In this document: piece by piece, positions 7,514 to 62,604 of the stretch
Numbering within the stretch: position 1 is the first letter of the stretch
Layout of the letters: every line of letters begins with the position of its first letter
Origin: a virus
Lineage: Duplodnaviria; Heunggongvirae; Uroviricota; Caudoviricetes
IMG/VR virus record: IMGVR_UViG_2630968701_000002
Length of the DNA stretch: 64,000 bases
Reading direction: 5' to 3' (one strand)
Notes under the pieces: generated by a model
Told to the model about the DNA's origin: nothing
The model's input: the letters and a program-made list of their open reading frames with translations, nothing else
The model's database searches: none
Translations under genes and position numbers: made by a program

Positions 7514-7544
7514 GGTTATATCCTGTGAAGCCTCACACGACTAA

Positions 7545-7800
7545 AGTCGCGTGCTTCCCCTTAAGTATGTATATACATACGTAGTCTCTTTAGGAGACGG
7601 GGACTTCATTTCTACAGATACAGCCAAAACTCAGAATTCTTATGACACGAAGGACATAAGCTCCGCATTCAGGCTAATTAACGTAGACCATGTGCAGGTG
7701 CTTCTCTTACTGCATGGAGGAACTTTTGCCTCCATGAGCAACCTCTCATTCTCAGGCAAGGATTTTAAGATCTCCCGGATAAAATACCGGGCTCCGATGT
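7545..7800 (-). ncRNA. candidate TnpB omega/right-end RNA overlapping the tnpB 3' end and the RE
   Basis: Established knowledge: the TnpB guide RNA derives from the 3' end of tnpB plus the RE. This stretch is GC-rich with hairpin-forming segments (cacgactaaagtcgcgtg). Confidence 0.4.
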
Positions 7801-8981
7801 TATAAGATGCGGAAAGATCGCAGTTGTAGACTTTTCCGTTCTGGAACTGGCAGACACTGTAAGATGAAAATCCTGCATGTTTTCCGCGCAGGACTCGTCC
7901 ACTTCCATCATAAGCCAGTCTGGAAGTGTTCCAGGCGCAGATCCGGGCAATATGCATTCCCAGACGATGCGCTTTATCCGTTACGACCCTCTGGACTTCC
8001 TGACTCTTCCACAGGTGCAGCCGCTGTTTTCTGGAACCGCGTTTCTTTCCTTTCTTTTCTAAATATTCAAAGACGATGGCGTCTGCGTTGTAAAGGACTG
8101 CGATATCCATGATAAACTTTGCAGTTTTGACAGAGATTTCATGATTGATCCCGTTCACTTTTGCCCATAACCTCGGCATCTTGCGGTTTCCATGCTGTTG
8201 TGCTTTCTTGATCCGGTTGATGCTGTGCGTCAGACAGTCTTGTTCCTTTGGAAGTTTTAAAAAATGCCTTCCAAGGATAGTGCCGTCACTACGCATCACA
8301 CTGATCGTTGCAGCAGCGTTGATTCCAAGATCGACCGCACAGATGATCCGGTCCGCAACGTCTGTATCACATAATTCGATATATTCTTTCATAGGAAAAT
8401 CCAGGAACCATTCATCTCCACGCTTCTGCAGGATCGGAGAACAATGTTTCCTTGCCTTGCATCTGCGTTCGATATAATCCATGTCAGATCTTCGGAGCTT
8501 GATCGTCAGCCAGTCCCAGGTGTTGCGGATATAGACTTTGATCCTTGCTTCATATTTTCCAATCTGCTGATACATATTTCCACGATACATACATGGATAA
8601 GAGTACCCAGCTTTTGGAAAGGAAGGCTTTCTTCCACGGATCTTTGGATCTTCTTCTTTCCAGTTTTTCAGATTACTTTTATAAGAAGAGACCTTGCCGA
8701 TCGCTTCATTGATCGCACTCCTTGCGAAGATAGCTTGGAAGTTTATAGAACTTCCGATCAAATGACTCATATGGCACTTCTGGGTTTTGCTTTGTCCTGT
8801 GACATAATCTCTCAACATAAATGACCGGGGAACATAAATAGTCTTCCTTGCGGATGTCTTCCCATTTCTGAAGACAAACCTGGATCATAAAATCGACAGC
8901 TTCCCGATACACAGATACTGTTTTTTTAAAGATATGATTGTAATTTTTAATTTTAGCACTGTATGTTGAAAATATCCGCAT
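7640..8981 (-). pseudogene. tnpB: tnpB (IS605 OrfB / RNA-guided nuclease), frameshifted copy
   Basis: Copy 2 is a single 446-aa ORF. Here the frame breaks near 8715, where ctccttgcgaag replaces copy 2's ctcctacgaag (a 1-nt indel), giving ORFs of 91 aa and 392 aa. RuvC-like motifs (AVDLG) and a C-terminal zinc finger (CQFQNGKVYNCDLSASYNIGARY) are present. Confidence 0.8.
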
Positions 8982-9147
8982 ATCGAACAGCTCCTTTCTT
9001 ATTTTTCCTCTTTCCTTAAATATGAGATTTATGAAAAAAAATATCTTTCATATATAAAAATCTTCTTCTTTGAAAGGAAACGTTACCTAACTCATGACTA
9101 AAGTCACGAGAGTGCGGTGACTGTTCTTCAAACTTATTTTTTTTTCA

Positions 9148-14824: not shown

Positions 14825-14872
14825 CTCGGCCATTCAATGACCGAGATGAAAGCAGGAGGCTCTTTTGAGCCA

Positions 14873-16285: not shown

Positions 16286-16590
16286 GGCTGGTCCTCCTTG
16301 TATTGTAATAGCAGGTACACAAAAGTCCTGCTCTCCCGGATGGGAGTGATCACCCTTCGACAATGTTCCAGATACTTCTTGCTTCAGGTCAGTGTTTTCT
16401 TCTCCTGAAAGACATCCGTTGCCTGAACCCTGTTCTCGGCTAGGGTACCACCGGGTCGGGTATTGATATCTGGGACGTAGCACTCAGTATCCAACAAAAA
16501 TGGATTCCCTTGCGCTGAGTCTAGTCAGCATGCCCTTTCGGGGACCATGAAATGACCTTGCACACTTCTTAGTATGTTCGGTTATTCAAT
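16286..16590 (-). ncRNA. candidate IscB omega RNA (5' of iscB)
   Basis: GC-rich, hairpin-rich 300-nt non-coding stretch between the element end and the iscB start, matching the known position of omega RNA. Confidence 0.45.
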
Positions 16591-28764: not shown

Positions 28765-28783
28765 ATGATTTGCTCCTTTTAAA

Positions 28784-29755
28784 TTAGTTCCAACGTGCAT
28801 CCGTGATGATCATTTGATTGTTGTTTGTCATCAAATATGAGATAGAAAAGTCTGGATACTGTTTATTCAAAACGCCTTCTCCAAATGTTCCATCTAATAC
28901 ATAATCCACATCAGCTTTTCCTATCCGGATTTCCTCATTGATCTCTGATTCCTGAATCACAAAATCTGGAAGATCTTCTTTTGTAACCTGTAAATTCTCA
29001 AGGATCCAATATTCAATATTGGAAATTCTGTTAAATCTCATTCCTACAATCTTGCGAAATACTTCATCGACATTTTCTTTTTTCAAAGTAGATTCCAAAG
29101 GATAGAATTGAAGAAATGCCTTACACATTGCAATCTCAAGATTAGCTTCCCAGTCTGGATCTTCAAAATCGATTTCATCATAAATGCAATGTTTATTAGG
29201 AATTGCTTTATTTTCTTTCACTTTATAAATCGTGCCATACCTTTTTTCAGCTTTTTTTGAAAGTATGTATTCTACTCCAATATCTCCAACCCGTAAACGT
29301 GCAGTATGAGAATCCATTCCTTCTCTTAAAGCCATTTCTTTTGTAAAAGCACACACAAAGTAATATTCTGGTCTGGTCATTAGATCAATGATTCCTTTTT
29401 CTTTTAATGGATACTTTTTCATGATCTCTAAATGAATGACTTCTCTTCTGTCAATTCTTTCTTCGCTATGCATTTCCTTGTCATATTCTGGGGTTAAATC
29501 ATAGAATATTTGAACATTCATAGATTGAAAAATGCCAAAGTCAAAGTTTCTGATAGATACTTCTAATGTTTCATCGTATCTATCCTTATCCCAAATAAAT
29601 GCGATTTTTTCATATTTCTTATTGTTAGATTCCAAATATCGTATGATTCTTTCGTGCTGATCAACAACATATGTAATCAATGATTCTAGATCATTATTAA
29701 ATGGAAGCATAATAGAACCATCTTTTTCGCTGCTGTAAATTCTTAAATAATACAT
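28784..29755 (-). CDS. hypothetical protein co-transcribed with the ATPase
   Basis: 323 aa. Its stop lies 19 nt upstream of the ATPase start. C-terminal motif PDFVIQESEINEEIRIGKADVDYVLDGTFG. Confidence 0.5.
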   Translation of the reverse strand: MYYLRIYSSEKDGSIMLPFNNDLESLITYVVDQHERIIRYLESNNKKYEKIAFIWDKDRYDETLEVSIRNFDFGIFQSMNVQIFYDLTPEYDKEMHSEERIDRREVIHLEIMKKYPLKEKGIIDLMTRPEYYFVCAFTKEMALREGMDSHTARLRVGDIGVEYILSKKAEKRYGTIYKVKENKAIPNKHCIYDEIDFEDPDWEANLEIAMCKAFLQFYPLESTLKKENVDEVFRKIVGMRFNRISNIEYWILENLQVTKEDLPDFVIQESEINEEIRIGKADVDYVLDGTFGEGVLNKQYPDFSISYLMTNNNQMIITDARWN

Positions 29756-37917: not shown

Positions 37918-37981
37918 AGTTTTACACTTCCTTTCTTATGTACCATTATATATTATTTTTATATGTGAAGCCTCACACGAC

Positions 37982-38240
37982 TAAAGTCGCGTGCTTCCCC
38001 TTAAGTATGTATATATATACATAGTCTCTTTAGGAGACGGGGACTTCATTTCTACAGATACAGCCAAAACTCAGAATTCTTATGACACGAAGGACATAAG
38101 CTCCGCATTCAGGCTAATTAACGTAGACCATGTGCAGGTGCTTCTCTTACTGCATGGAGGAACTTTTGCCTCCATGAGCAACCTCTCATTCTCAGGCAAG
38201 GATTTTAAGATCTCCCGGATAAAATACCGGGCTCCGATGT
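37982..38240 (-). ncRNA. candidate TnpB omega/right-end RNA
   Basis: Same reasoning as for copy 1. Confidence 0.4.
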
Positions 38241-39420
38241 TATAAGATGCGGAAAGATCGCAGTTGTAGACTTTTCCGTTCTGGAACTGGCAGACACTGT
38301 AAGATGAAAATTCTGCCTGTTTTCCGCGCAGGACTCGTCCACTCCCATCATAAGCCAGTCTGGAAGTGTTCCAGGCACAGATCCGGGCGATATGCATTCC
38401 CAGACGATGTGCTTTATCCGTTACGATCCTCTGGACTTCCTGACTCTTCCACAGGTGCAGCCGCTGTTTTCTGGAACCGCGTTTCTTTCCTTTCTTTTCT
38501 AAATATTCAAAGACGATGGCGTCTGCGTTGTAAAGGGTTGCGACATCCATGATAAACTCTGCAGTTTTGACAGAGATTTCATGATTGATCCCGTTCACTT
38601 TTGCCCATAACCTCGGCATCTTGCGGTTTCCATGCTGCTGTGCTTTCTTGATCCGGTTGATGCTGTGCGTCAGACAGTCTTGTTCCTTTGGAAGTTTCAA
38701 GAAATGTCTTCCAAGGATAGTGCCGTCACTACGCATCACACTGACCGTTGCAGCAGAGTTGATCCCAAGATCGACCGCACAGATGATCCGGTCCGCAACG
38801 TCTGTATCACATAATTCGATATATTCTTTCATAGGAAAATCCAGGAACCATTCATCTCCACGCTTCTGCAGGATCGGAGAACAATGTTTCCTTGCCTTGC
38901 ATCTGCGTTCGATATAATCCATGTCAGATCTTCGGAGCTTGATCGTCAGCCAGTCCCAGGTGTTGCGGATATAGACTTTGATCCTTGCTTCATATTTTCC
39001 AGTCTGCTGATACATATTTCCACGATACATACATGGATAAGAGTACCCAGCTTTTGGAAAGGAAGGCTTTCTTCCACGGATCTTTGGATCTTCTTCTTTC
39101 CAGTTTTTCAGATTACTTTTATAAGAAGAAACCTTCCCGATCGCATCACTGATCGCACTCCTACGAAGATAGCTTGGAAGTTTATAGAACTTCCGATCAA
39201 ATGACTCATATGACACTTCTGGGTTTCGCTTTGTCCTGTGACATAATCTCTCAACATAAATGACCGGAGAACATAAATAGTCTTCCTTGCGGATGTCTTC
39301 CCATTTCTGAAGACAAACCTGGATCATAAAATCGACAGCTTCCCGATACACAGATACTGTTTTTTTAAAGATATGATTGTAATTTTTAATTTTAGCACTG
39401 TATGTTGAAAATATCCGCAT
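38080..39420 (-). CDS. tnpB: TnpB RNA-guided nuclease (IS605 OrfB)
   Basis: 446 aa with RuvC motifs and a zinc finger. Single ORF, unlike copy 1. Confidence 0.85.
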   Translation of the reverse strand: MRIFSTYSAKIKNYNHIFKKTVSVYREAVDFMIQVCLQKWEDIRKEDYLCSPVIYVERLCHRTKRNPEVSYESFDRKFYKLPSYLRRSAISDAIGKVSSYKSNLKNWKEEDPKIRGRKPSFPKAGYSYPCMYRGNMYQQTGKYEARIKVYIRNTWDWLTIKLRRSDMDYIERRCKARKHCSPILQKRGDEWFLDFPMKEYIELCDTDVADRIICAVDLGINSAATVSVMRSDGTILGRHFLKLPKEQDCLTHSINRIKKAQQHGNRKMPRLWAKVNGINHEISVKTAEFIMDVATLYNADAIVFEYLEKKGKKRGSRKQRLHLWKSQEVQRIVTDKAHRLGMHIARICAWNTSRLAYDGSGRVLRGKQAEFSSYSVCQFQNGKVYNCDLSASYNIGARYFIREILKSLPENERLLMEAKVPPCSKRSTCTWSTLISLNAELMSFVS

Positions 39421-39675
39421 ATCGAACAGCTCCTTTCTTATTTTTCCTCTTTCCTTAAATATGAGATTTATGAAAAAAGATATCTTTCATATATAAAAAT
39501 CTTCTTTAAAAGGAAGCGTTACCTAACTCATGACTAAAGTCACGAGAGTGCGGTAAATGCTCTTCAAAAAAGTATTTCTTGCATTTTCGAAAAATAGTGA
39601 TATACTTAATTCATGGATTAACATCCTGGAAGACATCCTTATTACATAATATACAAGTCTTCCTATATACTCCCC

Positions 39676-46774: not shown

Positions 46775-47707
46775 TTACACAAAATCCCAAATGCTGTTAT
46801 CCGCAGTACTTTTAATTATTTGTGAAGCTCTATCTACTGTTCTTGGAGTTTCAATCGCTTTTGATTCATGTCTTTCCTTTTTTGGACTTTCCTTTTTTTG
46901 ATATTCTGTCCAGCCACTTACATGATCGCAATCTTTCATGTTCATTAATTGAAAGCAAAGTAACTCTGTAAGAATGTCATAACTGTCATTGAACGTAGGA
47001 ATTTTAACGAATAAAACAGTTGTCTGGTCTTTCATCTGATCTAATTCTAGATCATCAGTACTCGTTAATTGTTCAATCATAGGAAGATCAAAAATGGATA
47101 ATTTTGCAGCAAGAGATGCTAAGATACGTCTTTGGTCTTTCCAATGATTGACTTGAAATACTTTCCATTGCTTTACAGCAATATGATCCATACTCTTCTT
47201 TTCCAGATTAAAAAAAAGATCATCTAAATAATGGTAGGTATTCATATCTATATCATTCATCTGAGCATGCAGCATCTTCATAATAGAAGCAAAATTTTGT
47301 TCTTTCTTTGGGCGCTCCATTTTTATATAACAGAGTAAGGCTGTTAACAGCGCAATTTCTGCTCTAGTCATAAATGTTTCTTCATTATTATTTCCCAATT
47401 TATTGATCAGATATCTCGCATAAGACATTGCTTCTGCTTCATTCCTACAATAATACAGAGGATTGTAATGATTCTCTTCTTTCATCTGCACAAGATCAAG
47501 AACTTTTACTTTATATTCTTCTTTTTTAAAACCTGCAGCAGTATGTCTCATGATTTTCCCATTTGGATCATAAATAACAAAACTTTTGCCAATCTGCAAT
47601 ACCCTGTTTTTTTCTTTTATCATTTGTTCCATTGCATCTTCTGCAGAAACAGCTTCATTTGTTATTCCTGCAGCTAATATTTTTTTCATAAATTTTTCTT
47701 GATTCAT
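46775..47707 (-). CDS. hypothetical protein
   Basis: About 310-aa ORF. Confidence 0.45.
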   Translation of the reverse strand: MNQEKFMKKILAAGITNEAVSAEDAMEQMIKEKNRVLQIGKSFVIYDPNGKIMRHTAAGFKKEEYKVKVLDLVQMKEENHYNPLYYCRNEAEAMSYARYLINKLGNNNEETFMTRAEIALLTALLCYIKMERPKKEQNFASIMKMLHAQMNDIDMNTYHYLDDLFFNLEKKSMDHIAVKQWKVFQVNHWKDQRRILASLAAKLSIFDLPMIEQLTSTDDLELDQMKDQTTVLFVKIPTFNDSYDILTELLCFQLMNMKDCDHVSGWTEYQKKESPKKERHESKAIETPRTVDRASQIIKSTADNSIWDFV

Positions 47708-48015
47708 TTTTATCAATTCCTTTCTGTTTTTGTTTTTCTACTCAAATGATATCGAAACCCAGGCGAATTAACCACCATATATTAACATTTTTTCAAATTT
47801 ATTTTTAAACTGATTTTTGATGTTACACATAATTATTTTGTGTGTAATACCAATTTTTCTTTTTATTTATACATTCAGTTCAATTCATCCATTATATAAA
47901 GACATAAAAATATTTGGTATTGCCATTATTTTTTTTATGTTTCACTTTAAATATGAGAGATTTGAAAGAAAAAATATCCATACAAAAAAAAGGACCATCT
48001 CTGGTCCCTTAAAAA

Positions 48016-49259: not shown

Positions 49260-49500
49260 AGTGTCAATCAGGTAATAGTTCTTTTTCTCCCTGTTGAACC
49301 AGTAATGGTTGCTTCATAAATAGTCTGTTCCCCTGACATGGAAGTTAGCTTCAAACCGGCTGGCTGTTTGCTTAAGTACATGGACTACCATCTAGCAGTG
49401 TGGTTTCGCATCTGTCCATCTTAAGCTGGATTCTTATATGCGAGGGTGTCGATGCTCCATGATCATGGGTTTTACCAAGCCGATTGAACACTTTAATCTA
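49260..49500 (+). ncRNA. candidate IS110 bridge RNA in the 5' non-coding leader
   Basis: About 250-nt structured, GC-rich, ORF-free segment immediately upstream of the transposase. Bridge RNAs of IS110-group elements are known to sit in this position. Confidence 0.35.
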
Positions 49501-49521
49501 CAACGAAAGAAGGTGATTACA

Positions 49522-50748
49522 ATGAACACACTTTACGTCGGTATTGATGTAAGCAGCAAATCCAATGTCATTTACTTAATGCTTCCAAATGGTGATAAGC
49601 ACAGTAATTTTTCTGTTGCAAACTCACACGAAGGTTCCACCCAGTTGGTAAAAAGAATTCTTTCTGCTTTAACTTCACATTCCCTTGACACGGTTCTAAT
49701 CGGTCTTGAAGCAACCTCTGTTTATGGAGACAATCTCGTGTACTTCTTAAGAGAAGATGCCACTCTGGCGCCGTTTAACAGAAAGATTCATGTCCTCAAT
49801 CCTAAGCAGGTCAAAAAGTTTCATGACGCTTATAATGACCTTCCAAAGAATGATTATGTGGACTCTTTTGTTATTGCCGACTGCCTGCGTTTCGGTAGAA
49901 TCAACAAAGAGGTATATATGGGAGACTATCGTTACAAAGCTCTCCAGAACCTCACTCGGGCACGTTTCTTCGCTGTTCAAAATCTGGTAAAAGAAAAGCA
50001 GCGATTTATGAATGTGCTGTTCAAGAAGTATTCTACGATGACGCAGGAGAAGGTCTTCAGCGATACCTTCAGCACTACCGCCCTTGCTGTCTACGATGAA
50101 TTTGAATCCGCAGAAGCACTGGCAAATATGGACTTACATGAGCTTACTGACTTTATCATTGAAAAAGGAAAGAATCGTTTTCCTGATCCTGATGCAGTAG
50201 CCAAAGCCATACAGAAAGCTGCCCGCAGTTCTTACCGTTTACCAAAAACGGTAAATGATTCTGTCAATCAGGTGCTTTCCATATCCATAACCTCCATGAA
50301 GGCATTGGAATCTCAAATAAAAGAGTTCGATAAAGCTATTAAAGCCCAAATGGAACTCTTGCCAAACGTATTGATATCCATTCCGGGTATCGGACCTGTT
50401 TATTCAGCCGGAATCATGGCTGAAATCGGCGATATCAATCGTTTTAACAGTCAGGCTGCTCTTGCTAAATATGCAGGACTTGCCTGGAAGCAACACCAGT
50501 CCGGTGGCTTCGAGTCCGAAGTTACACGGCTCATTCCATCCGGCAACCGATTTTTAAAGTACTATCTGTGTGAAGCTGCATTTTCTCTTGTAAGATGCGA
50601 CAAGGAATACAGCGACTTCTACCGCCTCAAATATAAAGAGGTAAACAGATGCCAACACAAACGTGCACTCGCATTAACTGCCCGTAAATTTGTGCGCTTA
50701 GTCTTTCGACTGCTGAAAGACAATCGCCTATACTGTCCAGCAAAGTAG
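49522..50748 (+). CDS. IS110-family transposase (DEDD)
   Basis: MNTLYVGIDVSSKS at the N-terminus. C-terminal IPGIGPVYSAGIMAEIGDINRFNSQAALAKYAGL. AAGGTG RBS. Confidence 0.85.
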   Translation: MNTLYVGIDVSSKSNVIYLMLPNGDKHSNFSVANSHEGSTQLVKRILSALTSHSLDTVLIGLEATSVYGDNLVYFLREDATLAPFNRKIHVLNPKQVKKFHDAYNDLPKNDYVDSFVIADCLRFGRINKEVYMGDYRYKALQNLTRARFFAVQNLVKEKQRFMNVLFKKYSTMTQEKVFSDTFSTTALAVYDEFESAEALANMDLHELTDFIIEKGKNRFPDPDAVAKAIQKAARSSYRLPKTVNDSVNQVLSISITSMKALESQIKEFDKAIKAQMELLPNVLISIPGIGPVYSAGIMAEIGDINRFNSQAALAKYAGLAWKQHQSGGFESEVTRLIPSGNRFLKYYLCEAAFSLVRCDKEYSDFYRLKYKEVNRCQHKRALALTARKFVRLVFRLLKDNRLYCPAK

Positions 50749-50912
50749 ATTCCATCTACTTGCTGATGAGCTACGCCCTGTTCATTTTTAAAAATTTGAA
50801 CGACAGGGCTTAGGTGGATGTTTTTTGTCTTCATGAGATATATACAAAAATATATGTTTTTTGTGTTATTTATCTCTTGACATCACACCGCTGGACTATT
50901 TCTGCAAAAATT

Positions 50913-51701
50913 TTAAAACTCATCCCATTCTTCATCAATGATCAATCCAAAAGCAGGATGATATTCTGCTTCGCATATGACGTGTTTTTCATAAATCCTA
51001 TATCCTTTTTGCAAAACATATTTTACTGGAAATGGGCATTCAAACATATCTAAATCGCCGTCTTCAATTGCTTCATTTAATTTACATTCCGGGATTGCCA
51101 TAATAGAGTGTCCACAGTCTGGAAAATAATAATTAAATTCTCTTAATTCTTCTGGCAAACCTTTGTAATTATCTTTTCGAACTCCTGAAAGCCCTTCAAC
51201 ACTTCTACGAATTGTGTTTGATTCAGCTTTTTCTTCTGACGCTTCATTGACTGAGTCATCATCAAAGATTGACCAAGCTAGTGTTCTACAGAAATCTCCG
51301 GACCAATCTGTAATTACAAAACAAAATGGAGTTGGGATATCCATTATGAATGGAAGCTTTGGATGACACTCTCCTAATTCTTTTCCAGTCAACTCTTTTT
51401 GAGCGTCATTAATCGCTTTCATAGCAAATGATAATCCAGTTTCGTCCTTACAACCTACTGTTGTCAACAACACAATATCTTCACCTTTAGCTTCTATCAT
51501 GACTGTTGCAGAATAAAAGGATCCATCGGCCACAATGTGCAATTTTGTTTCGTCCATGAATGGAACTGTGTAATTACATGAAATACCTCTTTCGAATTTA
51601 ATAAGCTCTCTTACTCGAATTCTTATTTCTTTTTCGACTTCATTCGAATATGATTTCCGCATATGCCCTGTCATCAGTGTATAATGATGTATATATTCCA
51701 T
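50913..51701 (-). CDS. hypothetical protein
   Basis: 262-aa ORF. Confidence 0.45.
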   Translation of the reverse strand: MEYIHHYTLMTGHMRKSYSNEVEKEIRIRVRELIKFERGISCNYTVPFMDETKLHIVADGSFYSATVMIEAKGEDIVLLTTVGCKDETGLSFAMKAINDAQKELTGKELGECHPKLPFIMDIPTPFCFVITDWSGDFCRTLAWSIFDDDSVNEASEEKAESNTIRRSVEGLSGVRKDNYKGLPEELREFNYYFPDCGHSIMAIPECKLNEAIEDGDLDMFECPFPVKYVLQKGYRIYEKHVICEAEYHPAFGLIIDEEWDEF

Positions 51702-52249
51702 TATTTATCTACCTTAACCCTTCTCATTTCTCGCTGTTCTTTTTTATATTGTTCAATAGCTTCAAGTGCATCTTCAGTATAGCAGAAGTCAAATTTTTTG
51801 GCAAAATTATTTACTGATCGATAATGAGCAACAGGTATTTCTACGCATCCCTTTTCACGATTATATCGGCTATTTATAATTTTTCTGGATGCATTGTAAA
51901 TTTCGTTGTTTCTTCCACTCCAGTGTAATGCCAGAACTTTATTTTTGGAATCATATTCAATCCATCTTGTTCTTTCTTTTTCATAATCACCTGTAATTGC
52001 TTTTTCTGTAATTTCAGCATCGTGAATACAAATTGCATATCCATTTCTTAATAATTCATGGCCAATTTCAGCTGCTCGATCAGGATATTTTCCAGTTTCT
52101 TCATTCAAACGACGATACCAGCAGCAATCATCTTCATTCCATCTATAGCCTTTTGTCTTAGCCAAATCGATGAAATCCTGATTCTTCAGATAAAACAGAC
52201 ATATTTTATCAAGTTTCTTAACGATTTCTACAACGCCTTTATACTGCAA
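51701..52249 (-). CDS. hypothetical protein
   Basis: 182-aa ORF. Confidence 0.45.
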   Translation of the reverse strand: MQYKGVVEIVKKLDKICLFYLKNQDFIDLAKTKGYRWNEDDCCWYRRLNEETGKYPDRAAEIGHELLRNGYAICIHDAEITEKAITGDYEKERTRWIEYDSKNKVLALHWSGRNNEIYNASRKIINSRYNREKGCVEIPVAHYRSVNNFAKKFDFCYTEDALEAIEQYKKEQREMRRVKVDK

Positions 52250-52710
52250 ATCTTCTGGGGCAACAGCATCAATATCAATAATTCTTTCTCTGCGTTCCTT
52301 TTCTTTTTAGTTCGTTCATATTTAGTTAAAAACTCTCTTTTGCTGTTGAATCGATCTAAATCTAACCAGAAAGAAGCTACTGTTTCGTTTTCAATCATTT
52401 CCTGTGCCGTCCTATTATTTTCAAATTCATTATAAAAATCCAATCGAATTGTATTTGCCCATGCCACTTGCTTTTCTGATCCTGTTAGTTCTGGGAATCC
52501 ATATTCTTTTGACAGCACCTCAGAGTTTTTATTTTCTTCTACAATCTGTTGTTCTCTTTCTTTTTTCGCACATTGTGGACATAGATGAGAAAAAGCATAA
52601 TCTATTTTTCGTTGCCTATCACGCATTTTTCCAATCACATTTACTACGCCATCGTGTCCACAAGCATAGGTTCCTTCATATTTTGCCATATTCAGATTCT
52701 TCCTTTCCAA
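52228..52710 (-). CDS. hypothetical protein with zinc-ribbon-like Cys pairs
   Basis: YACGHDG...HLCPQCAKKE. Confidence 0.4.
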   Translation of the reverse strand: MERKNLNMAKYEGTYACGHDGVVNVIGKMRDRQRKIDYAFSHLCPQCAKKEREQQIVEENKNSEVLSKEYGFPELTGSEKQVAWANTIRLDFYNEFENNRTAQEMIENETVASFWLDLDRFNSKREFLTKYERTKKKRNAEKELLILMLLPQKICSIKAL

Positions 52711-52930
52711 AATGTCTTTCAGCGATTTCTACAAAAAACTGTTTTTCAACAATATCCATAATCATAATGAAATCTAAGTATCCGTCCGGATAAAGTTCGC
52801 TTTTATACATTCTAGCATATTTTACGAAACTTTCGCATCTTTTCCCAGTTTTCTTTGATTCGGTATAATCCTGCCATATGAGGTTTAAGTCATCCTCACT
52901 CACTTTGTCAAAAAGCCTATATATGTTCAT
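52676..52930 (-). CDS. hypothetical small protein
   Basis: 84-aa ORF. Confidence 0.4.
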   Translation of the reverse strand: MNIYRLFDKVSEDDLNLIWQDYTESKKTGKRCESFVKYARMYKSELYPDGYLDFIMIMDIVEKQFFVEIAERHFGKEESEYGKI

Positions 52931-53053
52931 GACTATATCACACCTTTCTTAGTAATATCTTCTTACTACAAATATGAAAGAAATCCAAGAAACAAAAAAT
53001 CACATATAAAAAAAGAAGCTCATTCATGAGCTCCCAATATATTATTCCATTCT

Positions 53054-53545
53054 TTACAATAACCTTTTTTCTTTTAAAGTATACAACGCTTCTTTACATC
53101 CATATTTCTGAACCCATGTTTTTAAAACAAGATTAGAAAGATCGATCTGCGCAACATAAATATCGTTCTTTAGAATCATAAGGTCGTGCACAAAATAATC
53201 TCCAACCCATCCATTTAACAAGGATTCATCCACATCCAAAATACAAGGAGTGATTTCATAATCAAATCCCGTGATATATAGTTTGCGGTCATCTTTTAAA
53301 AGTGACTTTAATGATTTCATAACATTTTTTACTAAATGATTCTTTTCTTTATCTTCTGAAAGTATTGTATTTGAAGAGGAATTTAATCTGCGATCTTTGA
53401 TTTTTTCTAATCTTCTCGCAATTTCAATTTCCTGCTGTAATTCTTCTAAGCGACTTGCTGCTTCTCCACAAATACAAGCCTGTTCTCCTAATTTCGATGA
53501 CTTTTCCAAAATTCTTAATTCTTTGATCAGTTCTTTTGTTTCCAT
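53054..53545 (-). CDS. hypothetical protein
   Basis: 163-aa ORF. Confidence 0.45.
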   Translation of the reverse strand: METKELIKELRILEKSSKLGEQACICGEAASRLEELQQEIEIARRLEKIKDRRLNSSSNTILSEDKEKNHLVKNVMKSLKSLLKDDRKLYITGFDYEITPCILDVDESLLNGWVGDYFVHDLMILKNDIYVAQIDLSNLVLKTWVQKYGCKEALYTLKEKRLL

Positions 53546-53546
53546 C

Positions 53547-53945
53547 TTACTCTACCTCCTCAATTTTGATCTTGTCATTATATAATTGTTTTCCTGTAGC
53601 GGATAACACAAATCTGTTTTTCTTGATATTAGCCAGAATCCTGTCATATTCTCTCAACACATTTTTTAGATAGTTCCCGAATTCTTTCTTTGCTTTATTA
53701 ATGTCATCTTCTGTACTATAAAAATACAGCACGTCCCCATCCAAAAACAAAGAATTATCTCGTTCCCACTCTTTCTGTTTGTTTAGTACTTTTTCCATTT
53801 CATTTTTCGCAAGATTATTAGAATCATTGTATTCAAAACAATTACTAGAAGAAGCATTTAATTTATAAGAAGTCCTGCCATCCGTTACTTCATATTTTTT
53901 CACTTTAATCTTGCCAACAACAAGCTTATATTCATATAAATTCAT
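53547..53945 (-). CDS. hypothetical protein
   Basis: 132-aa ORF. Confidence 0.45.
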   Translation of the reverse strand: MNLYEYKLVVGKIKVKKYEVTDGRTSYKLNASSSNCFEYNDSNNLAKNEMEKVLNKQKEWERDNSLFLDGDVLYFYSTEDDINKAKKEFGNYLKNVLREYDRILANIKKNRFVLSATGKQLYNDKIKIEEVE

Positions 53946-53954
53946 AAAAACACC

Positions 53955-54692
53955 TCACTCTTTTTGATCTTTTCGAAAAATCAAACCATAAATTTTAATT
54001 TCATCCATGAAATTTGAATAACCAAGATCCTCACAACACATAGATACTTCACAATACCCACAAGTATTTTCATGAATTTGATCATACAGTTCTTCTTTTT
54101 CTTCTTCAGAAGCATTTCCAGATCTTACTTTTTCGTATTCTGTTTGATCAATCCAACATGTATCTCCAGAAGCACAAGCTGATATTTTCAACATGCATTT
54201 TCCAACCTTATGTTCTACAAGCATATCAATAATCTGTTTCCATTGATCATCAGTTAATTCCATTGTTTTGTATTCTGTATTGTCATATTCAGCAACTTCT
54301 TGTGAGGTATTGTTGAATTCCGTCTCTGCTAAATCTTTGTATAAAGCATTTAAGTTCCGCATTCGAGCAACAAATCCATCAAATTCATAAATTTGTTCTT
54401 TTGTCAAGAACGTCAATTCGTTTAAAAATGGATAATGTATTGCAGCTCCATTTTCTTTGATTAAGCCTCTTCGGATTTCTATGTATAAAGCTTCTCTTAT
54501 TTTCATGTCATCGATAGAAAGCAAAAACGTTTCTCTCAGTAATATCTTATCTTCTAATGACATTTCCTTGATTTGATCAATAGTTAATGTATCCAAATTC
54601 TCATGAATTCTTTTTCGATGCTGTTCTTCCATCTGATACAACTTATCAAGTTTTTCTTTTTCTTCTAATAACGTATTTAATAGGTTATTCAT
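53955..54692 (-). CDS. hypothetical protein with Cys-rich C-terminus
   Basis: CMLKISACASGDTCW...CGYCEVSMCCEDLGY. Confidence 0.45.
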   Translation of the reverse strand: MNNLLNTLLEEKEKLDKLYQMEEQHRKRIHENLDTLTIDQIKEMSLEDKILLRETFLLSIDDMKIREALYIEIRRGLIKENGAAIHYPFLNELTFLTKEQIYEFDGFVARMRNLNALYKDLAETEFNNTSQEVAEYDNTEYKTMELTDDQWKQIIDMLVEHKVGKCMLKISACASGDTCWIDQTEYEKVRSGNASEEEKEELYDQIHENTCGYCEVSMCCEDLGYSNFMDEIKIYGLIFRKDQKE

Positions 54693-54768
54693 AGGTTTTC
54701 TCCTTTATTTATTAATACTGCGTTCGGAGACTCGTGACTTTAGTCGTGAGAGGAGAACGCAGAGATTT

Positions 54769-56292
54769 TTATGACACAAAGACCAGACCCTGATTGTGAA
54801 CAACGATCTTGCATTTCTTTGCAGGGAAATCCTTGTCTCTCATTCCAACCGCCTGAAGATATTGTCCATTGCTATGCTGTCCACGCATGACATATCGAAC
54901 GCCTTGATAATAAAAGACAGCTCCTGGCATGAGACGATCCAGACGATTGTAACGCCGGATACTTTTCTTGACTTTTAACTGACTGATCATTTTTCTGGTC
55001 TGTTCTTCTCCATATCTCTCAACCTGTCGTTTTCTCCATCCCTGAAGAGAATCGTCCTTTTGTCCTTCCGCTTTTTTGCGGTTCTTGGCAATTTTCTTTC
55101 CTTCATGATAGTATGCACGAGAGGTCTGAGCTTTGATCCGGCTGCGATCCTGTCTGCGGAATTGCAGGATCTCATGCACATGATCGAACTCTGGGGCTTT
55201 CTCTGGGACATGCTGTAAAGCAAGAACTGCGATACACCAGGCATCGACCTCATGCAGCTGCTCTTCTTTTGTCTTATGATATCCAAGGGATCTTCGGACC
55301 ATGGAGGTATCTCGTCCAGAACAGTAATGAACATGTTCCTTCCCGAATTCCTGTTCCAGTCGTTTGCAGATAAATGGAATCGCCTGATTTAAGACACTGA
55401 CCGCTGCATAACGTTTGTTCAGCCCAGCTTTCTTTTTCTTCAGACGGTCCTCAAATCTTGCATCTTTATGGACTCTCTCATGACATTTGCAGCATAATCC
55501 TGCGATGTTTCCGATCGTGTTGGACCCTTGCATACTCCGTGGTACGATATGATGCCGGTGCTCGATCGGACTGTTACACATTAAACAGTGCCCATCCTGC
55601 AGATCTTCAATGGCTACGTTCAAGTCATCATAACCCTTTAACGGTCCATTCTGGAAATCGACACCACTGATGCTCGGATCTTCCAGAGATAGAAAAGCGA
55701 ACCGGTTGATCTCGATCGCGACATCGGTGATCGGCAGGAATTTCTGCATTTTATGGATCAGATTGATGTGTGTCCGCACCAGATGTTCCGCACTTGGTGT
55801 CAGCCATCCATCTTCTCGTTTTCGATTGCAAAACTTGGCTTCTGTGTTCTTGATCACATTGCATCGTACTCGTTTATCTTTTCCATACATCGGAAGTTTT
55901 CGCATCAGGAATCCAGTCTTGATCATCGTATGACATTTCTTGGCTAGTCGCTGTCTTGCCTTTCGTTCTCCATTTCTGGAAGCTCTGCGATGCTGCTTTC
56001 GTTTTTCCATCAGTTTAACGATCTCTTTATTTCTCGTTTGCACAACCGCTGCGGATAATAGTTCTCCACTCAGAGATACCACGGCCATTCCAATATTAGA
56101 ACGTCCAGGATCTTCTGCGATCGTGACTGGCTGCAAGACTGGTTTGTTTTCATAAGTTAACTGTATCGTAAAAGGGATCTGCCGGAAGACGCGTGCTCTT
56201 CCTGCCTGTAACAGTTTTTCGACATGTCTCTTTCGTTTTGTAGGCATCTGTGGATCTCCATCCATGCCTAAGACATAAATATATTCTGACAT
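54769..56292 (-). CDS. iscB: IscB (OMEGA RNA-guided nuclease)
   Basis: Start MSEYIYVLGMDGDPQMPT (PLMP-type) with GGAGG RBS. RuvC-I EDPGRSNIGMAVV. HNH CLMCNSPIEHRHHIVP...CCKCHERVH. 507 aa. Confidence 0.8.
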   Translation of the reverse strand: MSEYIYVLGMDGDPQMPTKRKRHVEKLLQAGRARVFRQIPFTIQLTYENKPVLQPVTIAEDPGRSNIGMAVVSLSGELLSAAVVQTRNKEIVKLMEKRKQHRRASRNGERKARQRLAKKCHTMIKTGFLMRKLPMYGKDKRVRCNVIKNTEAKFCNRKREDGWLTPSAEHLVRTHINLIHKMQKFLPITDVAIEINRFAFLSLEDPSISGVDFQNGPLKGYDDLNVAIEDLQDGHCLMCNSPIEHRHHIVPRSMQGSNTIGNIAGLCCKCHERVHKDARFEDRLKKKKAGLNKRYAAVSVLNQAIPFICKRLEQEFGKEHVHYCSGRDTSMVRRSLGYHKTKEEQLHEVDAWCIAVLALQHVPEKAPEFDHVHEILQFRRQDRSRIKAQTSRAYYHEGKKIAKNRKKAEGQKDDSLQGWRKRQVERYGEEQTRKMISQLKVKKSIRRYNRLDRLMPGAVFYYQGVRYVMRGQHSNGQYLQAVGMRDKDFPAKKCKIVVHNQGLVFVS

Positions 56293-56520
56293 CCTTGATG
56301 CCTCCTTTCTTTTTTTTGGTGTCATGTAGTCTCTCAGGGATCAACGGGATCCCCGCCTCGGTGGTAAGCCTGTACATGACGAATTTTTGGTCTTCTTAAA
56401 CTTGGTGTCAGCTTGACAAGGTCTGGAACTAGAGAATCCCAGAGTGTCCACTTTCCAAAGAAGATCGCTGACATCTTGTTTCTGCTCATTAACGCACTAA
56501 CTAATTCACAAAACTTCTGC
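56293..56520 (-). ncRNA. candidate IscB-2 omega RNA
   Basis: GC-rich, structured 230-nt non-coding region between the element end and the iscB start. Confidence 0.4.
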
Positions 56521-56543
56521 AAGCTCGTGACTTTAGTCATGAG

Positions 56544-56969
56544 TTAATTGACTTCATCCATGTCATGCAGCAATTGGTCATACTGTTCTTTTATGTAACA
56601 AAACTCTCTTTTGTAATAATCAAGTTCTTTTTTCATTTTTTTTACTTTATCGGGCGTTAATTTTGTCTGTCTATACAGTAATAGCTCATTTAATGCCATT
56701 ATTGTTACTTTATTCAAATAAGTATTATCAGCAGCTCTGTATCTATCTAGTGCATTTTTGATAGCATCATCATTAAGATTCACGTCTAATAGTTCTGCAT
56801 CCTTATTTGAGATATCGTACTGAGTAACGCCCAGCATTCTTGCAATTCCTGTTACGGTTTCTTTATATGCTAATAATTCTTGTAAACATTTTTCTGTCTG
56901 TAGACTGTCTTCATATTCTTTGTAATATTCAATCAGCTCTTCAATTTTTTCTTTCGGTGTTTCTGTCAT
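56544..56969 (-). CDS. hypothetical protein
   Basis: 141-aa ORF. The IS end follows its stop directly. Confidence 0.45.
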   Translation of the reverse strand: MTETPKEKIEELIEYYKEYEDSLQTEKCLQELLAYKETVTGIARMLGVTQYDISNKDAELLDVNLNDDAIKNALDRYRAADNTYLNKVTIMALNELLLYRQTKLTPDKVKKMKKELDYYKREFCYIKEQYDQLLHDMDEVN

Positions 56970-57144
56970 TTCTCCATTCTCCTTCTATCCCAAGATGAAA
57001 CATTTACATTTTCTTCTTTATTTAAATATGCGAGATTTTTCAAAAGATATTTTTCATATATAAGATTTTAAATGATAGAACTGGCTGATATTAACAAAAA
57101 AAAACAGACTAGCGATTGAACAACTAATCTGTTTTTGGTATTTT

Positions 57145-57822
57145 TCAATCATTGTCTTTTAAGATTGCCAAGAGATCAACAAAAAGATTGATCAGATCCA
57201 AATAGATATCTGCACCAAAAATAATCGCATTTGCTACCGTATGAGATACACGCTGCGCAGCTACAAAATCATGTCCGATATATAAAGAAAATACGATCGC
57301 TGAAATCCATGTTACAATTCCAGAATTTAAGTCTGCAAAAAAGCATACAATATACGCAATGATAATGCCTAACAATGCAACAAAAAGCATTCTTCCAATT
57401 CCCAGAAAAAATTTAGGAAAAATAGAGCTAAGAACGACCATGCAAACAGTAATAATCGTTGTAATGATCAATGTTTCTAATACAATATCAGATTTTCCAA
57501 CATAATCATTTAAGGTTGTAGATAATGTTGCACCACACGGAATTATCAACATATTGTAGCCTATGAATTTCAAAATTATCGACTTACAAAATGTCAATAC
57601 AGCAATCCCTATAATTGCGATAATCAGATATCCAATTAACAATACTTTTACTGGAGTCTTTGCTACATAATCTCCGAAAAACGCACATGTAATAAGATTT
57701 ATCAACAAGCCATATAGTACAATGGCTCCGATCAGCAAATTATATGTTCCCTCATTTAGATATATATTTTCTAATTTTGAACTAAATTTTATATCCATTT
57801 TTCTACCGCTTTTTATTTTCAT
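57145..57822 (-). CDS. multi-pass membrane protein
   Basis: 225 aa with about 5-6 hydrophobic helices. Confidence 0.45.
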   Translation of the reverse strand: MKIKSGRKMDIKFSSKLENIYLNEGTYNLLIGAIVLYGLLINLITCAFFGDYVAKTPVKVLLIGYLIIAIIGIAVLTFCKSIILKFIGYNMLIIPCGATLSTTLNDYVGKSDIVLETLIITTIITVCMVVLSSIFPKFFLGIGRMLFVALLGIIIAYIVCFFADLNSGIVTWISAIVFSLYIGHDFVAAQRVSHTVANAIIFGADIYLDLINLFVDLLAILKDND

Positions 57823-60658: not shown

Positions 60659-60974
60659 CGCTTTCTCTTCCTTCCTTTCTCTTCCTTCAAATCTTTTATA
60701 TTTACATTTTTTAGATTTATTAAGGCATTGATCAATGATGCATTAACAATCTGGCATCCTTCTCTTTTCCGCTAACATGCATTTCGATAGTCTTTATCAC
60801 GTTATATGCAACATACAGAAAAAATATTATTCCGCAGATTGCACAAAATGTTGAGATTATGGGATGATACTGTATGACCTGCAGAAAACTTGCTTGGGGT
60901 GGTATTGGATGGAAAGGATGTGTTTCTTCATATCCTATTGGTTCATGAACTACCACTCCCATGCGGTACATAAT

Positions 60975-61100
60975 CCCTATGGAAGGGGTTTCCAGTAGTC
61001 GTGACAGTTACCCATCTCTGACGAAATATTTCGAAAAAAAAACACCTCGCTGTCCGTACCAACTGAGGCTGGCTCACGCAACCCCTATCTCTTTTACGAG
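60975..61100 (-). ncRNA. candidate TnpB-B omega/right-end RNA
   Basis: GC-rich structured segment directly downstream of the tnpB stop. Confidence 0.35.
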
Positions 61101-62443
61101 AATACTTGTATAACTTTGATATTCTGCAAGAAAGAAAAGTCCGTGATCTTTGAGAAAGTCTCTGGAAATTTCTTTCTTAAGATATTTCCTGCGCCGATCA
61201 GATCTGCATTGAATAGGTTCCCTTCCTTATTCTGATAGAGTCCACGTTTGACTCTTGTTCCGGAAAACTTTGCCTTTTCATCATCCACTCCATACGTTGG
61301 AATATGATCTCCTGCAGTCAGATCCGCTTTTGACGTATAGCTTTCTTCCTGACTGATCACTTCGATCCCGACACGCTCTGCCTTGTACTCGATCATCTTT
61401 CGCAGCTGATAGAATGGCATCTGGACAAAGGACTGTGTATTTTTTCCAAGCTCAATACTCTGTTTCCATTGCTCATTGACTCCGATCACGATCGTAGTGA
61501 TCCCGTGAGACATACATTCCTGAACGATCCTGGAACTGATCTTGTGCATCGCATCGTGGAAGAACAGATCTCTCTTCTGATGCAATCTTCGCATCTGTTT
61601 TGTGTTCAACAATCCCATTTTTGCTGCTTCTTTCGGGTCATGTCCTTTCATTGCGATCGACCGAAGCCTTGCAAGCTGTTTGTTGTACCACTGGTTCTTT
61701 TCTTTGAGCACACCGCCTTTGTACAGCCAGCAATCTCCCTTGCTGCTCACGATGGCTGCGATGTTCTCAACACCAAGATCAATGGCACAGACCCCGGATC
61801 CCTTCACTTTTTCTTCCGGATCTGGGCATTCAAACGTGCAGGCCAATAACAGATCTCCGTAATATGGTTTTACTTTGACTTCCTTTAATCGTCCTTCCGG
61901 TCGATACGGCAGATGGATCGTTTCGTTTGTAAGAGCGAACCGCAGGATATCTCCTTCTTTGATCTTGCAGCCCTGATTGGAAAAAGTGATCGTGGAGATC
62001 GAACGCTTCTTCTTATAGTGTGGCATTTTCGGTTTTCCCAGATACTTTTCCGGATGCTTCTTATATTTTCTCAAAGAAGCTAACCAGCTGCGAAAATCAT
62101 GGACCGCTGCTTTCTGACATTCTTCTGCCGTCTGGGATGGAAGCCCTGCAAAGAAATCAGGATTATCCATCACACGCATCATCCGTTCCAGAAACTTATA
62201 ACTCAGAACAGATTTCGGACGTTTCAGGTGTGGACACAGTTCTAATGTTTCTTCGATCTCACGCTGTACTTCCAGCTCATTCTCTGTCGGATGCTCTTTC
62301 TTCCGAGAAGTAAAGTTCTGTCGGATCCGGAACAATGTCGCATTATAGAGATTGTTTGATAAGTGCATATGATGATCCAGATATTCATATAATCCGGGAT
62401 CTTTCTTCTGTTTTAATACAGTTCTTAACACTCGATATATCAT
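61094..62443 (-). CDS. tnpB: TnpB-like RNA-guided nuclease lacking the zinc-finger cysteines
   Basis: RuvC-I CAIDLGVENIA. RuvC-III NADLIGAGNI. The position normally CxxC...CxxC reads SYTSKADLTAGDHIPTYG. 449 aa. Confidence 0.7.
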   Translation of the reverse strand: MIYRVLRTVLKQKKDPGLYEYLDHHMHLSNNLYNATLFRIRQNFTSRKKEHPTENELEVQREIEETLELCPHLKRPKSVLSYKFLERMMRVMDNPDFFAGLPSQTAEECQKAAVHDFRSWLASLRKYKKHPEKYLGKPKMPHYKKKRSISTITFSNQGCKIKEGDILRFALTNETIHLPYRPEGRLKEVKVKPYYGDLLLACTFECPDPEEKVKGSGVCAIDLGVENIAAIVSSKGDCWLYKGGVLKEKNQWYNKQLARLRSIAMKGHDPKEAAKMGLLNTKQMRRLHQKRDLFFHDAMHKISSRIVQECMSHGITTIVIGVNEQWKQSIELGKNTQSFVQMPFYQLRKMIEYKAERVGIEVISQEESYTSKADLTAGDHIPTYGVDDEKAKFSGTRVKRGLYQNKEGNLFNADLIGAGNILRKKFPETFSKITDFSFLQNIKVIQVFS

Positions 62444-62604
62444 TCCCCGTCATTCCTCCTTTCTTAAGTCTTACATCTTAAATATGATAGATTTTCTGAA
62501 AGATATTTTTCATATATAAGATTCTTACATTTCAAAGGAAGCTCGCATCCATCCCCGCCCAACTTTCATTGTGGACGGGGTATTCTGCTTAGATCAATAA
62601 AAAC

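What the first reader, a model, noticed from the sequence alone, without database searches (positions are those of the whole stretch)
54721..56543. Second, distinct IscB element that shares end hairpins with the TnpB-A elements
IscB-2 (507 aa) is only distantly related to IscB-1. Its element termini carry cgtgactttagtcRtgag hairpins that are reverse complements of the TnpB-A element ends (7545 and 9098). This indicates that both element types are mobilised by the same absent TnpA in trans, a nice example of IS200/605 module exchange. The hairpins sit on the opposite strand relative to the nuclease gene compared with the TnpB-A copies. The element abuts the stop codon of 56544-56969. It also lies only 28 nt upstream of the start of 53955-54692, so the usual cassette of that gene is missing.
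Basis: seen in the sequence. Interest (0 to 1): 0.55.

Follow-up and report, generated by a model that had tools for sequence, protein, structure and literature searches.

The report
IscB transposon sharing family-wide end hairpins
This is an ordinary, intact, non-autonomous IS200/IS605-type transposon carrying an IscB RNA-guided nuclease and its guide RNA; its end hairpins do match those of two TnpB transposons in the window, but that hairpin is common to a very large, already described transposon family.

Summary
The 18-nt hairpin CGTGACTTTAGTCRTGAG occurs six times in the window (0.02 expected): at both ends of the IscB-2 element on the + strand and at both ends of two TnpB-A copies on the - strand. 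Nine independent insertion sites and one empty site move the element boundaries to 54713-56552 (1840 bp). It lies 3' of a TTTAT target motif and ends in TTGAC. It supplies the last two codons and the stop codon of the upstream host gene.

IscB-2 is a full-length relative of the structurally solved OgeuIscB and OrufIscB. It has a covariation-supported guide RNA that starts at the right end. No Y1 transposase (TnpA) gene is in the window, but TnpA genes lie next to the identical hairpin in many Bacillota genomes, Lachnospiraceae included.

In each element the 4-nt DNA "guides" beside the hairpins match that element's own target and end motifs. Mobilisation in trans by one TnpA type is therefore well supported, though inferred. 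The "module exchange" reading is not supported, because the hairpin is shared family-wide. The opposite-strand arrangement is the canonical IscB layout (Meers et al. 2023). Ordinary; low interest.

The parts
54708..54712 (+). Target/transposon-adjacent motif TTTAT (host DNA, not part of the element). Read on the iscB strand it is ATAAA, the IscB TAM.
   Evidence: Eight other independent insertion sites of copies that are at least 86% identical have TTCAT at this position, and the window has TTTAT. The empty site L136 has ATAAA immediately after the guide-matching sequence.
54713..54765 (+). Left end (LE). It starts TAATACTGCG. Outer stem: 54718-54724 pairs with 54756-62. DNA guide GAGA: 54727-54730. 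Hairpin CTCGTGAC-TTTA-GTCGTGAG: 54731-54750.
   Evidence: Conserved across independent copies up to ...TATTA, immediately before the TAM. The GA.A guide matches the TTCAT-type TAM under the family-wide covariation rule.
54769..56292 (-). iscB gene, 507 aa, intact.
   Evidence: Pfam RRXRR and HNH. Full-length match to OgeuIscB (7xht, 8e-111) and a match to OrufIscB (9nvu, 2e-128). D61, E194, H247, H248, H347 and D350 are invariant in a 30-sequence alignment. 100% identical copies occur in L217, L218 and L226.
56293..56552 (-). Omega RNA scaffold. Its 5' end is at 56552 (GUCAAUUAAC...) and it runs to the iscB ribosome-binding site.
   Evidence: Full-length but sub-threshold Rfam HEARO match at 56364-56552, 19 bits against a gathering score of 83. 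In a 16-sequence alignment of 49 pairs, 95% of cells are paired against 30-43% in slid controls, and 13 pairs show compensatory changes against 1-4 in controls.
56520..56552 (+). Right end (RE). DNA guide CAAG: 56520-56523. Hairpin CTCGTGAC-TTTA-GTCATGAG: 56524-56543. End motif (TEM) TTGAC: 56548-56552, where the element ends.
   Evidence: All independent copies begin GTCAATTAAC on the iscB strand and their flanks diverge immediately outside it. The CA.G guide pairs with TTGAC under the family rule, 6 of 7 cases.
56553..56568 (-). Predicted 16-nt guide of the omega RNA (GCAUGACAUGGAUGAA). It is host sequence, the 3' end of the 141-aa gene.
   Evidence: It lies immediately 5' of the scaffold. 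The identical sequence followed by ATAAAT is present in the empty allele L136. The 16-nt length is taken from published IscB work, not measured here.
7525..9126 (-). TnpB-A copy 1. TAM TTGAA at 9127-9131 (-). LE hairpin 9089-9108. RE hairpin 7532-7551. TEM TTCAC ends at 7525. The ORF is frameshifted (392 aa).
37965..39562 (-). TnpB-A copy 2 (446-aa ORF). TAM TTGAA at 39563-39567 (-). Same hairpins as copy 1.
   Evidence: 97.6% identical to copy 1.

Best explanation
Window 54713-56552 is a non-autonomous IS200/IS605-family (OMEGA) element of the OgeuIscB/OrufIscB clade. Its TnpA-active "top" strand is the window + strand.

Proposed mechanism.
- A Y1 transposase (TnpA) encoded elsewhere binds the two subterminal hairpins.
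- It cuts after the target motif TTTAT (between 54712 and 54713) and after the end motif TTGAC (between 56552 and 56553). Each cut site is read by a 4-nt DNA guide just 5' of the hairpin (GAGA on the left, CAAG on the right).
- The element leaves as a single-stranded circle and re-inserts 3' of TTYAT.
- iscB lies on the other strand, so the omega RNA begins at the right end and takes its guide from the flanking host gene. Transcription must read in from the upstream host gene; a promoter-like cassette lies at about 57.04-57.10 kb.
- The IscB-omega RNA complex should then cut the empty allele (guide match followed by ATRAA) and restore the element by recombination.

The two TnpB-A copies carry the same hairpin, so the same TnpA type can serve them, although their DNA guides direct them to a different motif (TTGAA).

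Shown here: anatomy, boundaries, target motif, conservation, covariation, absence of tnpA from the window, and existence of cognate TnpA genes elsewhere. Inferred: actual excision, in-trans mobilisation, RNA production and cleavage.
For: - Hairpins: 6 matches against 0.02 expected.
- IscB identity and intact catalytic residues.
- Boundaries and TAM from 9 independent sites plus the empty site L136.
- Hairpin pair kept at both ends down to about 47% aa identity, with compensatory changes.
- TAM/TEM covary with the DNA guide over 208 non-redundant ends: TTGAA with CA.T 26/27, TTGAT with CA.A 47/51, TTTAT with AA.A 33/35, TTCAC with GA.G 15/17, TTGAC with CA.G 6/7. All four window ends obey the rule.
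- Y1_Tnp genes (Pfam 1e-42) lie next to the identical hairpin.
- L090 is an autonomous LE-tnpA-tnpB element whose TnpB is 43% identical to TnpB-A.
- Omega RNA covariation.
- Near-identical copies (93-100% aa) sit at several different sites, and both occupied and empty alleles are present in public metagenomes.
- Published precedent: one TnpA excises several IscB and TnpB families with shared ends; GstIscB TAM is TTCAT and the TEM is TTCAC.
- OgeuIscB TAM is NWRRNA, compatible with ATRAA.
Against: - No tnpA is in the 64 kb, and none lies within 1-4 kb of any of about 100 IscB-2-clade loci. The source of transposase for this replicon is therefore unknown.
- The window copy sits at TTTAT, whereas 8 of 9 sites use TTCAT. 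That implies a G-T mismatch with the GAGA guide and possibly a weaker IscB TAM.
- The occupied and empty alleles differ by an 11-nt indel in the flank, so scarless insertion cannot be shown exactly.
- The Rfam HEARO score is far below threshold (19 against 83 bits).
- Some relatives (L001, L129) have decayed hairpins, and a frameshifted iscB occurs at the same site in other samples, so decay after insertion is common.
Confidence: 0.85

Rival explanations
1. Recent module exchange. IscB-2 and TnpB-A swapped or copied ends from one another, so the shared hairpin reflects a specific recombination between these two elements.
For: The IscB-2 RE and the TnpB-A LE share 23 identical nt (CTCGTGACTTTAGTCATGAGTTA). 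Contig L240 joins the LE side of TnpB-A to the IscB-2 omega RNA exactly through this repeat.
Against:
- Sequence outside the hairpin, the DNA guides, the TAM (TTYAT versus TTGAA) and the TEM (TTGAC versus TTCAC) all differ.
- IscB-2 relatives down to 47% identity already carry this hairpin.
- L240 has 1.09x coverage and its junction is the 23-nt repeat, which is the signature of an assembly chimera.
Confidence: 0.07
2. Immobile relic. The element is fixed at this site and no longer transposes. The hairpins persist only because one is part of the omega RNA and the other acts as an RNA stem-loop downstream of iscB.
For: The same insertion is found in many samples (L003, L127, L128, L217, L218, L226). 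No tnpA is nearby. Frameshifted iscB alleles exist at this site. L001 and L129 have degenerate hairpins.
Against: - Copies of 93-96% aa identity sit at at least six other sites, each with its own guide and a TTCAT motif.
- The LE hairpin and its DNA guide are not part of the omega RNA, yet they are conserved and matched to the TAM.
- An empty allele coexists in public data.
Confidence: 0.06
3. The repeats are not transposon ends but a dispersed regulatory or REP-like hairpin of this replicon that happens to flank nuclease genes.
For: They are short, palindromic, and occur six times in the window.
Against: All six copies sit exactly at the ends of nuclease-gene islands of about 45% GC in a backbone of about 31% GC. 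Homology among independent copies stops 9-20 nt outside them. The same hairpin lies next to Y1 transposase genes elsewhere.
Confidence: 0.02

Closest known systems
ISGst5 (GstIscB) and the ISGst1-5 families of Geobacillus stearothermophilus (Meers et al. 2023, bioRxiv 10.1101/2023.03.14.532601 / Nature)
   Same: - Non-autonomous IscB and TnpB elements with similar LE and RE that one TnpA excises in trans.
- The IscB omega RNA scaffold derives from the RE, with the guide 5' outside the boundary.
- Co-orientation with the upstream gene.
- IscB TAM is TTCAT; a TEM of TTCAC is seen here in TnpB-A.
- TAM and TEM covary with subterminal DNA guides.
   Different: - Different host (human-gut Bacillota mobile element rather than Geobacillus).
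- The IscB-2 TEM is TTGAC.
- The window copy sits at TTTAT.
- I could not compare the ISGst hairpin sequence itself, because it is not in the text I could read.
- No activity data for this element.
OgeuIscB and OrufIscB (solved structures 7xht, 7utn, 8csz; 9nvu)
   Same: Full-length sequence relatives (E 1e-110 to 1e-128) with the same domain order and conserved catalytic residues. The OgeuIscB TAM NWRRNA is compatible with ATRAA(A). Both come from human gut metagenomes.
   Different: By eye, roughly 45-60% identical in the printed alignments (not computed). The omega RNA differs enough that Rfam HEARO scores only 19 bits.
IS608 (H. pylori) and ISDra2 (D. radiodurans), the reference IS200/IS605 elements
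   Same: Y1 TnpA acting on subterminal hairpins of one strand, insertion 3' of a 4-5-nt motif without terminal inverted repeats, and cleavage sites read by DNA guides 5' of the hairpin foot. ISDra2 uses TTGAT, the commonest TAM among ends that carry this hairpin.
   Different: Those elements are autonomous (tnpA plus tnpB). This one has iscB on the opposite strand and no tnpA.
HEARO RNA (Rfam RF02033)
   Same: The alignment spans the whole model (1-211). An outer helix encloses a first hairpin with a UAAA loop, which is the transposon-end hairpin, directly upstream of an HNH-nuclease ORF.
   Different: 19.2 bits against a gathering score of 83, so by Rfam's criterion it is not a member.

Membership tests
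IS200/IS605-family IscB (OMEGA) element | IscB protein: N-terminal RRXRR/PLMP region, split RuvC with inserted HNH, catalytic residues present | tested here: met
   Pfam RRXRR 1e-40 and HNH 5e-7. OgeuIscB 8e-111 over residues 3-504. D61, E194, H247, H248 and D350 invariant.
IS200/IS605-family IscB (OMEGA) element | Structured omega RNA immediately upstream of iscB, beginning at the transposon end, with the guide outside it | tested here: met
   Conserved about 260-nt region starting exactly at the boundary. 49 pairs, 95% of cells paired, 13 compensatory pairs against 1-4 in slid controls. Flanks diverge immediately 5' of it.
IS200/IS605-family IscB (OMEGA) element | Subterminal imperfect hairpins at both ends on the same strand, no terminal inverted repeats | tested here: met
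   Hairpins at 54731-54750 and 56524-56543, both on the + strand. Conserved in relatives.
IS200/IS605-family IscB (OMEGA) element | Insertion 3' of a specific short motif (TAM), no target duplication, and the nuclease TAM is the same motif | tested here: met
   TTCAT at 8 sites and TTTAT at 1 of 9 independent sites. The empty site has the motif at the junction. No duplication is seen. An 11-nt flank indel prevents an exact scarless comparison.
IS200/IS605-family IscB (OMEGA) element | Cleavage motifs complementary to DNA guides 5' of each hairpin | tested here: met
   GAGA with TTYAT and CAAG with TTGAC fit the rule derived from 208 ends.
IS200/IS605-family IscB (OMEGA) element | Mobilised by a Y1 (HUH) TnpA, in cis or in trans | not testable with these tools
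   No tnpA in the window. Y1_Tnp genes lie beside the identical hairpin in 33 other loci. Activity needs an experiment.
Rfam HEARO (RF02033) | Score at or above the curated gathering threshold | tested here: not met
   19.2 bits against 83, E 0.34 on a 2.1-kb search. No hit at the gathering threshold on the whole window.
ISGst-type family group (Meers et al.) | Same hairpin and end sequences as ISGst1-5 | not tested
Only the TAM and TEM motifs (TTCAT, TTTAT, TTCAC) and the presence of the hairpin in Anoxybacillus point that way.

The most novel reading that the evidence does not exclude
The identical hairpin shared by the RE of IscB-2 and the LE of TnpB-A may act as a real joining point. TnpA strand transfer or homologous recombination there would create composite elements with divergent iscB and tnpB around one central hairpin, as in contig L240. 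It would also produce flank deletions that end at TAM motifs, as in L221. That would be a concrete route by which OMEGA nuclease modules are reshuffled between transposon ends.
Probability: 0.08. Interest if true: 0.5.

Novelty: new member of a known kind. Interest (0 to 1): 0.2.

Why it matters
It matters little beyond annotation. The element is a clean, intact natural example of a gut IscB transposon from the OgeuIscB/OrufIscB clade. Its ends, TAM (ATRAA), guide and empty target site are all defined, and it sits beside TnpB elements that use the same transposase hairpin. That could serve as a ready test set for in-trans mobilisation or for TAM studies. The principle itself, that one TnpA serves several IscB and TnpB families through shared ends while target choice is encoded in DNA guides, has already been shown experimentally.

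Tried and rejected
- Megablast of the region against phage and plasmid records found nothing.
- Single-protein pattern scans of the viral and genome collections found no relatives. Alignment-based scans were needed.
- Rfam at gathering threshold found nothing in the whole window.
- My first boundary reading, LE starting at CTGCG (54718), was rejected once eight further sites showed conserved TAATA followed by TTCAT.
- Most of the roughly 42%-identical IscB loci in viral contigs use other hairpins, so they gave no information on these ends.
- The promoter/terminator scan of 54500-57200 gave no more sites than shuffled sequence.
- L240 as evidence of a true IscB-TnpB composite was rejected as probably an assembly chimera: 1.09x coverage and a junction that is the 23-nt repeat.
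- The ISGst hairpin sequence could not be found in the paper text.
- Pfam on the 567-aa ORF of the neighbouring insertion in L130 gave no hit.

Full report
**1. Observation**

The window is AT-rich (about 31% GC) and almost all genes lie on the - strand. It contains islands of about 45% GC. One island holds ORF 54769-56325(-). Counted from the start codon used by homologues (56292), the protein is 507 aa. It matches Pfam RRXRR (1e-40) and HNH (5e-7) and is 29% identical to IscB-1 at 14873-16483.

The motif CGTGACTTTAGTCRTGAG occurs six times (0.02 expected; 0 of 100 shuffles reached 6). It flanks the IscB-2 island on the + strand (54733, 56526). It also flanks two 97.6%-identical TnpB-A copies on the - strand (7534/9091 and 37974/39527).

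IscB-1 and a third TnpB element (61094-62443) use other hairpins. An IS110-family gene lies at 49438-50748.

**2. True boundaries**

Protein searches showed that IscB-2 belongs to a large human-gut clade. I fetched contigs for close relatives and 80 further loci from metagenomes.

- Copies that are 86-96% identical sit in nine unrelated contexts.
- On the iscB strand every copy begins GTCAATTAAC, and the flank diverges immediately 5' of it.
- At the other end homology runs through ...GAACGCAG TATTA and is followed by ATGAA (8 sites) or ATAAA (the window).
- In + strand terms the element is 54713-56552. It is preceded by TTTAT (54708-54712) and ends in TTGAC.

An uninterrupted relative of the host locus (L136) reads ...CATGGATGAA|ATAAATCCC.... 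The motif sits exactly at the junction, and the host protein ends DEINPY* there, against DEVN* in the window. So the last two codons and the stop codon of ORF 56544-56969 come from the element. The occupied and empty alleles also differ by an 11-nt indel in the flank, so a perfectly scarless comparison is not possible.

In L136 the 245-aa gene starts 16 nt after the upstream gene. It never had its own promoter cassette.

**3. The hairpin is a family trait**

Almost all hits are recognisable IS ends.

- Left ends have TTGAT, TTGAA or TTTAT about 19 nt upstream of the hairpin.
- Right ends have TTCAN or TTGAC about 5-9 nt downstream.

Hosts include Paenibacillus, Anoxybacillus, Clostridioides difficile, Lachnospiraceae, Butyrivibrio, Holdemanella, Pectinatus, Synergistales and others.

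Y1 transposase genes (Pfam Y1_Tnp, 1e-42) lie immediately to the right of the hairpin on the same strand in 28 cases. In total, 13 viral and 20 genome loci carry one, several Lachnospiraceae among them. L090 is a complete LE-tnpA-tnpB element whose TnpB is 43% identical to TnpB-A. None of ten TnpA queries finds anything in the window (best E 0.15). No IscB-2-clade locus has tnpA within its flanks.

Within the IscB-2 clade both hairpins persist down to about 47% protein identity, with compensatory stem changes such as CTCCTGAC..GTCAGGAG. TnpB-A relatives of 62-72% identity also keep them.

**4. The ends look functional**

Over 208 non-redundant ends, the 4 nt that precede the two-base hairpin foot covary with the cleavage motif.

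| Motif | DNA guide | Cases |
|---|---|---|
| TTGAA | CA.T | 26/27 |
| TTGAT | CA.A | 47/51 |
| TTTAT | AA.A | 33/35 |
| TTCAA | GA.T | 21/22 |
| TTCAC | GA.G | 15/17 |
| TTCAG | GA.C | 8/8 |
| TTGAC | CA.G | 6/7 |

This is the DNA-guide rule known from IS608 and ISGst. The four ends in the window fit it.

| End | DNA guide | Motif |
|---|---|---|
| IscB-2 LE | GAGA | TTCAT family (TTTAT here, one G-T mismatch) |
| IscB-2 RE | CAAG | TTGAC |
| TnpB-A LE | CACT | TTGAA |
| TnpB-A RE | GAAG | TTCAC |

So the two element types share the protein-binding hairpin but carry different, internally coherent target specifications.

**5. Nuclease and RNA**

IscB-2 aligns over its full length with OgeuIscB (7xht, 7utn; about 1e-110) and also matches OrufIscB (9nvu; 2e-128). 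The catalytic residues are invariant in a 30-sequence alignment.

The upstream 260 nt give a full-length but sub-threshold HEARO match (19 bits against 83). Sixteen diverse homologues support a structure of 49 pairs. In it 95% of cells are paired against 30-43% in slid controls, and 13 pairs show compensatory changes against 1-4 in controls. The first stem-loop of the RNA is the right-end hairpin.

The 16 nt 5' of the scaffold (GCAUGACAUGGAUGAA) match the empty allele, where they are followed by ATAAAT. ATRAA(A) is compatible with the NWRRNA TAM published for OgeuIscB and equals the TTCAT reported for GstIscB.

No promoter signal above chance lies inside the element. A promoter-like cassette repeated elsewhere in the window lies upstream of the host gene at about 57.04-57.10 kb. 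This fits read-in transcription as described by Meers et al..

**6. Comparison with what is known**

Meers et al. showed the following in G. stearothermophilus.

- Several IscB and TnpB families share LE and RE.
- A single TnpA excises them.
- The IscB omega RNA scaffold derives from the RE, with an external 5' guide.
- IscB elements are co-oriented with upstream genes.
- TAM and TEM covary with DNA guides.
- TnpA and the nuclease read the same TAM.

Everything seen here is an instance of that picture. The "opposite strand" point is the canonical layout, and it held without exception in my sample (9 IscB, 20 TnpB).

The "module exchange" idea has only two things in its favour: the 23-nt identity between the IscB-2 RE and the TnpB-A LE, and contig L240. 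L240 joins the two elements through that repeat, but at 1.09x coverage it is most simply an assembly chimera.

**7. Verdict**

Shared in-trans mobilisation is well supported by inference. The element-specific exchange and the "missing cassette" are not supported. This is a new member of a known kind, an intact and recently mobile gut IscB element. Interest is low.

Noticed in passing
window 57042-57100 (-), 9036-9062 (-), 39475-39501 (-), 62499-62516 (-): A promoter-like cassette (CTTATATATGAAAAATATCTTT..AAAATCT..CATATTTAA) lies upstream of the host 141-aa gene. The same cassette lies inside TnpB-A copies 1 and 2 and inside TnpB-B, upstream of tnpB. IscB-2 has none. It is unclear why IS-borne tnpB genes carry the same cassette as backbone genes.
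   Followed up: partly
L130:3200-5100 (also L131, L135): In relatives that lack IscB-2, a different insertion sits after GTTAT about 30 nt into the homologue of the 245-aa gene. It starts with the hairpin CCCAGTGGCTTGCCTCTGGG, carries the same promoter-like cassette, and has a 567-aa ORF with no Pfam hit.
   Followed up: partly
L221 compared with window 56555-56636: L221 has the same left-end junction as the window, but 82 nt of host gene next to the right end are missing. The deletion ends exactly at an ATGAA (TTCAT) motif. This suggests a second insertion site followed by inter-copy recombination, or a TnpA-mediated adjacent deletion.
   Followed up: partly
L226 compared with window 50902-54705: A contig with a 100%-identical IscB-2 lacks 3.8 kb (seven small genes). 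There the end of the IS110-family element abuts 7 nt beyond the IscB-2 TAM.
   Followed up: partly
L240:1-2487: The left-end side of TnpB-A is joined to the IscB-2 omega RNA through the shared 23-nt TAACTCATGACTAAAGTCACGAG. Coverage is 1.09x, so this is probably an assembly chimera, but a real recombinant is not excluded.
   Followed up: partly
L003:4001-5504 (also L004-L006): At the same insertion site in other samples, iscB is split by a frameshift into 434 aa and 53 aa (10 contigs). Inactivated alleles therefore circulate alongside the intact one.
   Followed up: no
window 14700-16800 and 60900-62600: IscB-1 and TnpB-B are separate IS200/605-type elements with other hairpins: CTCGGCC-ATTGAAT-GGCCGAG for IscB-1, and CCCCGTCCACAATGAAAGTTGGGCGGGG with a TTGAT motif for TnpB-B. 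At least three transposase-recognition classes therefore coexist in 64 kb.
   Followed up: partly
window 7640-8818 compared with 38080-39420: The ORF of TnpB-A copy 1 is 392 aa against 446 aa in copy 2, a 5' frameshift. Copy 1 is probably inactive as a nuclease, yet its ends are intact.
   Followed up: no
whole window: All five OMEGA nuclease genes are on the - strand like the backbone genes, even though the IscB and TnpB elements then have opposite TnpA top strands. Orientation therefore seems set by transcription rather than by replication strand. The only + strand gene of at least 200 aa is the IS110 transposase.
   Followed up: no
window 46775-47716, 27616-28800; L003:7343-9305: The backbone encodes a T4SS coupling-protein-like ORF and an AbiEii-like AAA ATPase. 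A close relative (L003) has JetA and JetB where the window has small ORFs at 52-53 kb. The replicon looks like a conjugative element or plasmid of gut Lachnospiraceae rather than a phage.
   Followed up: no
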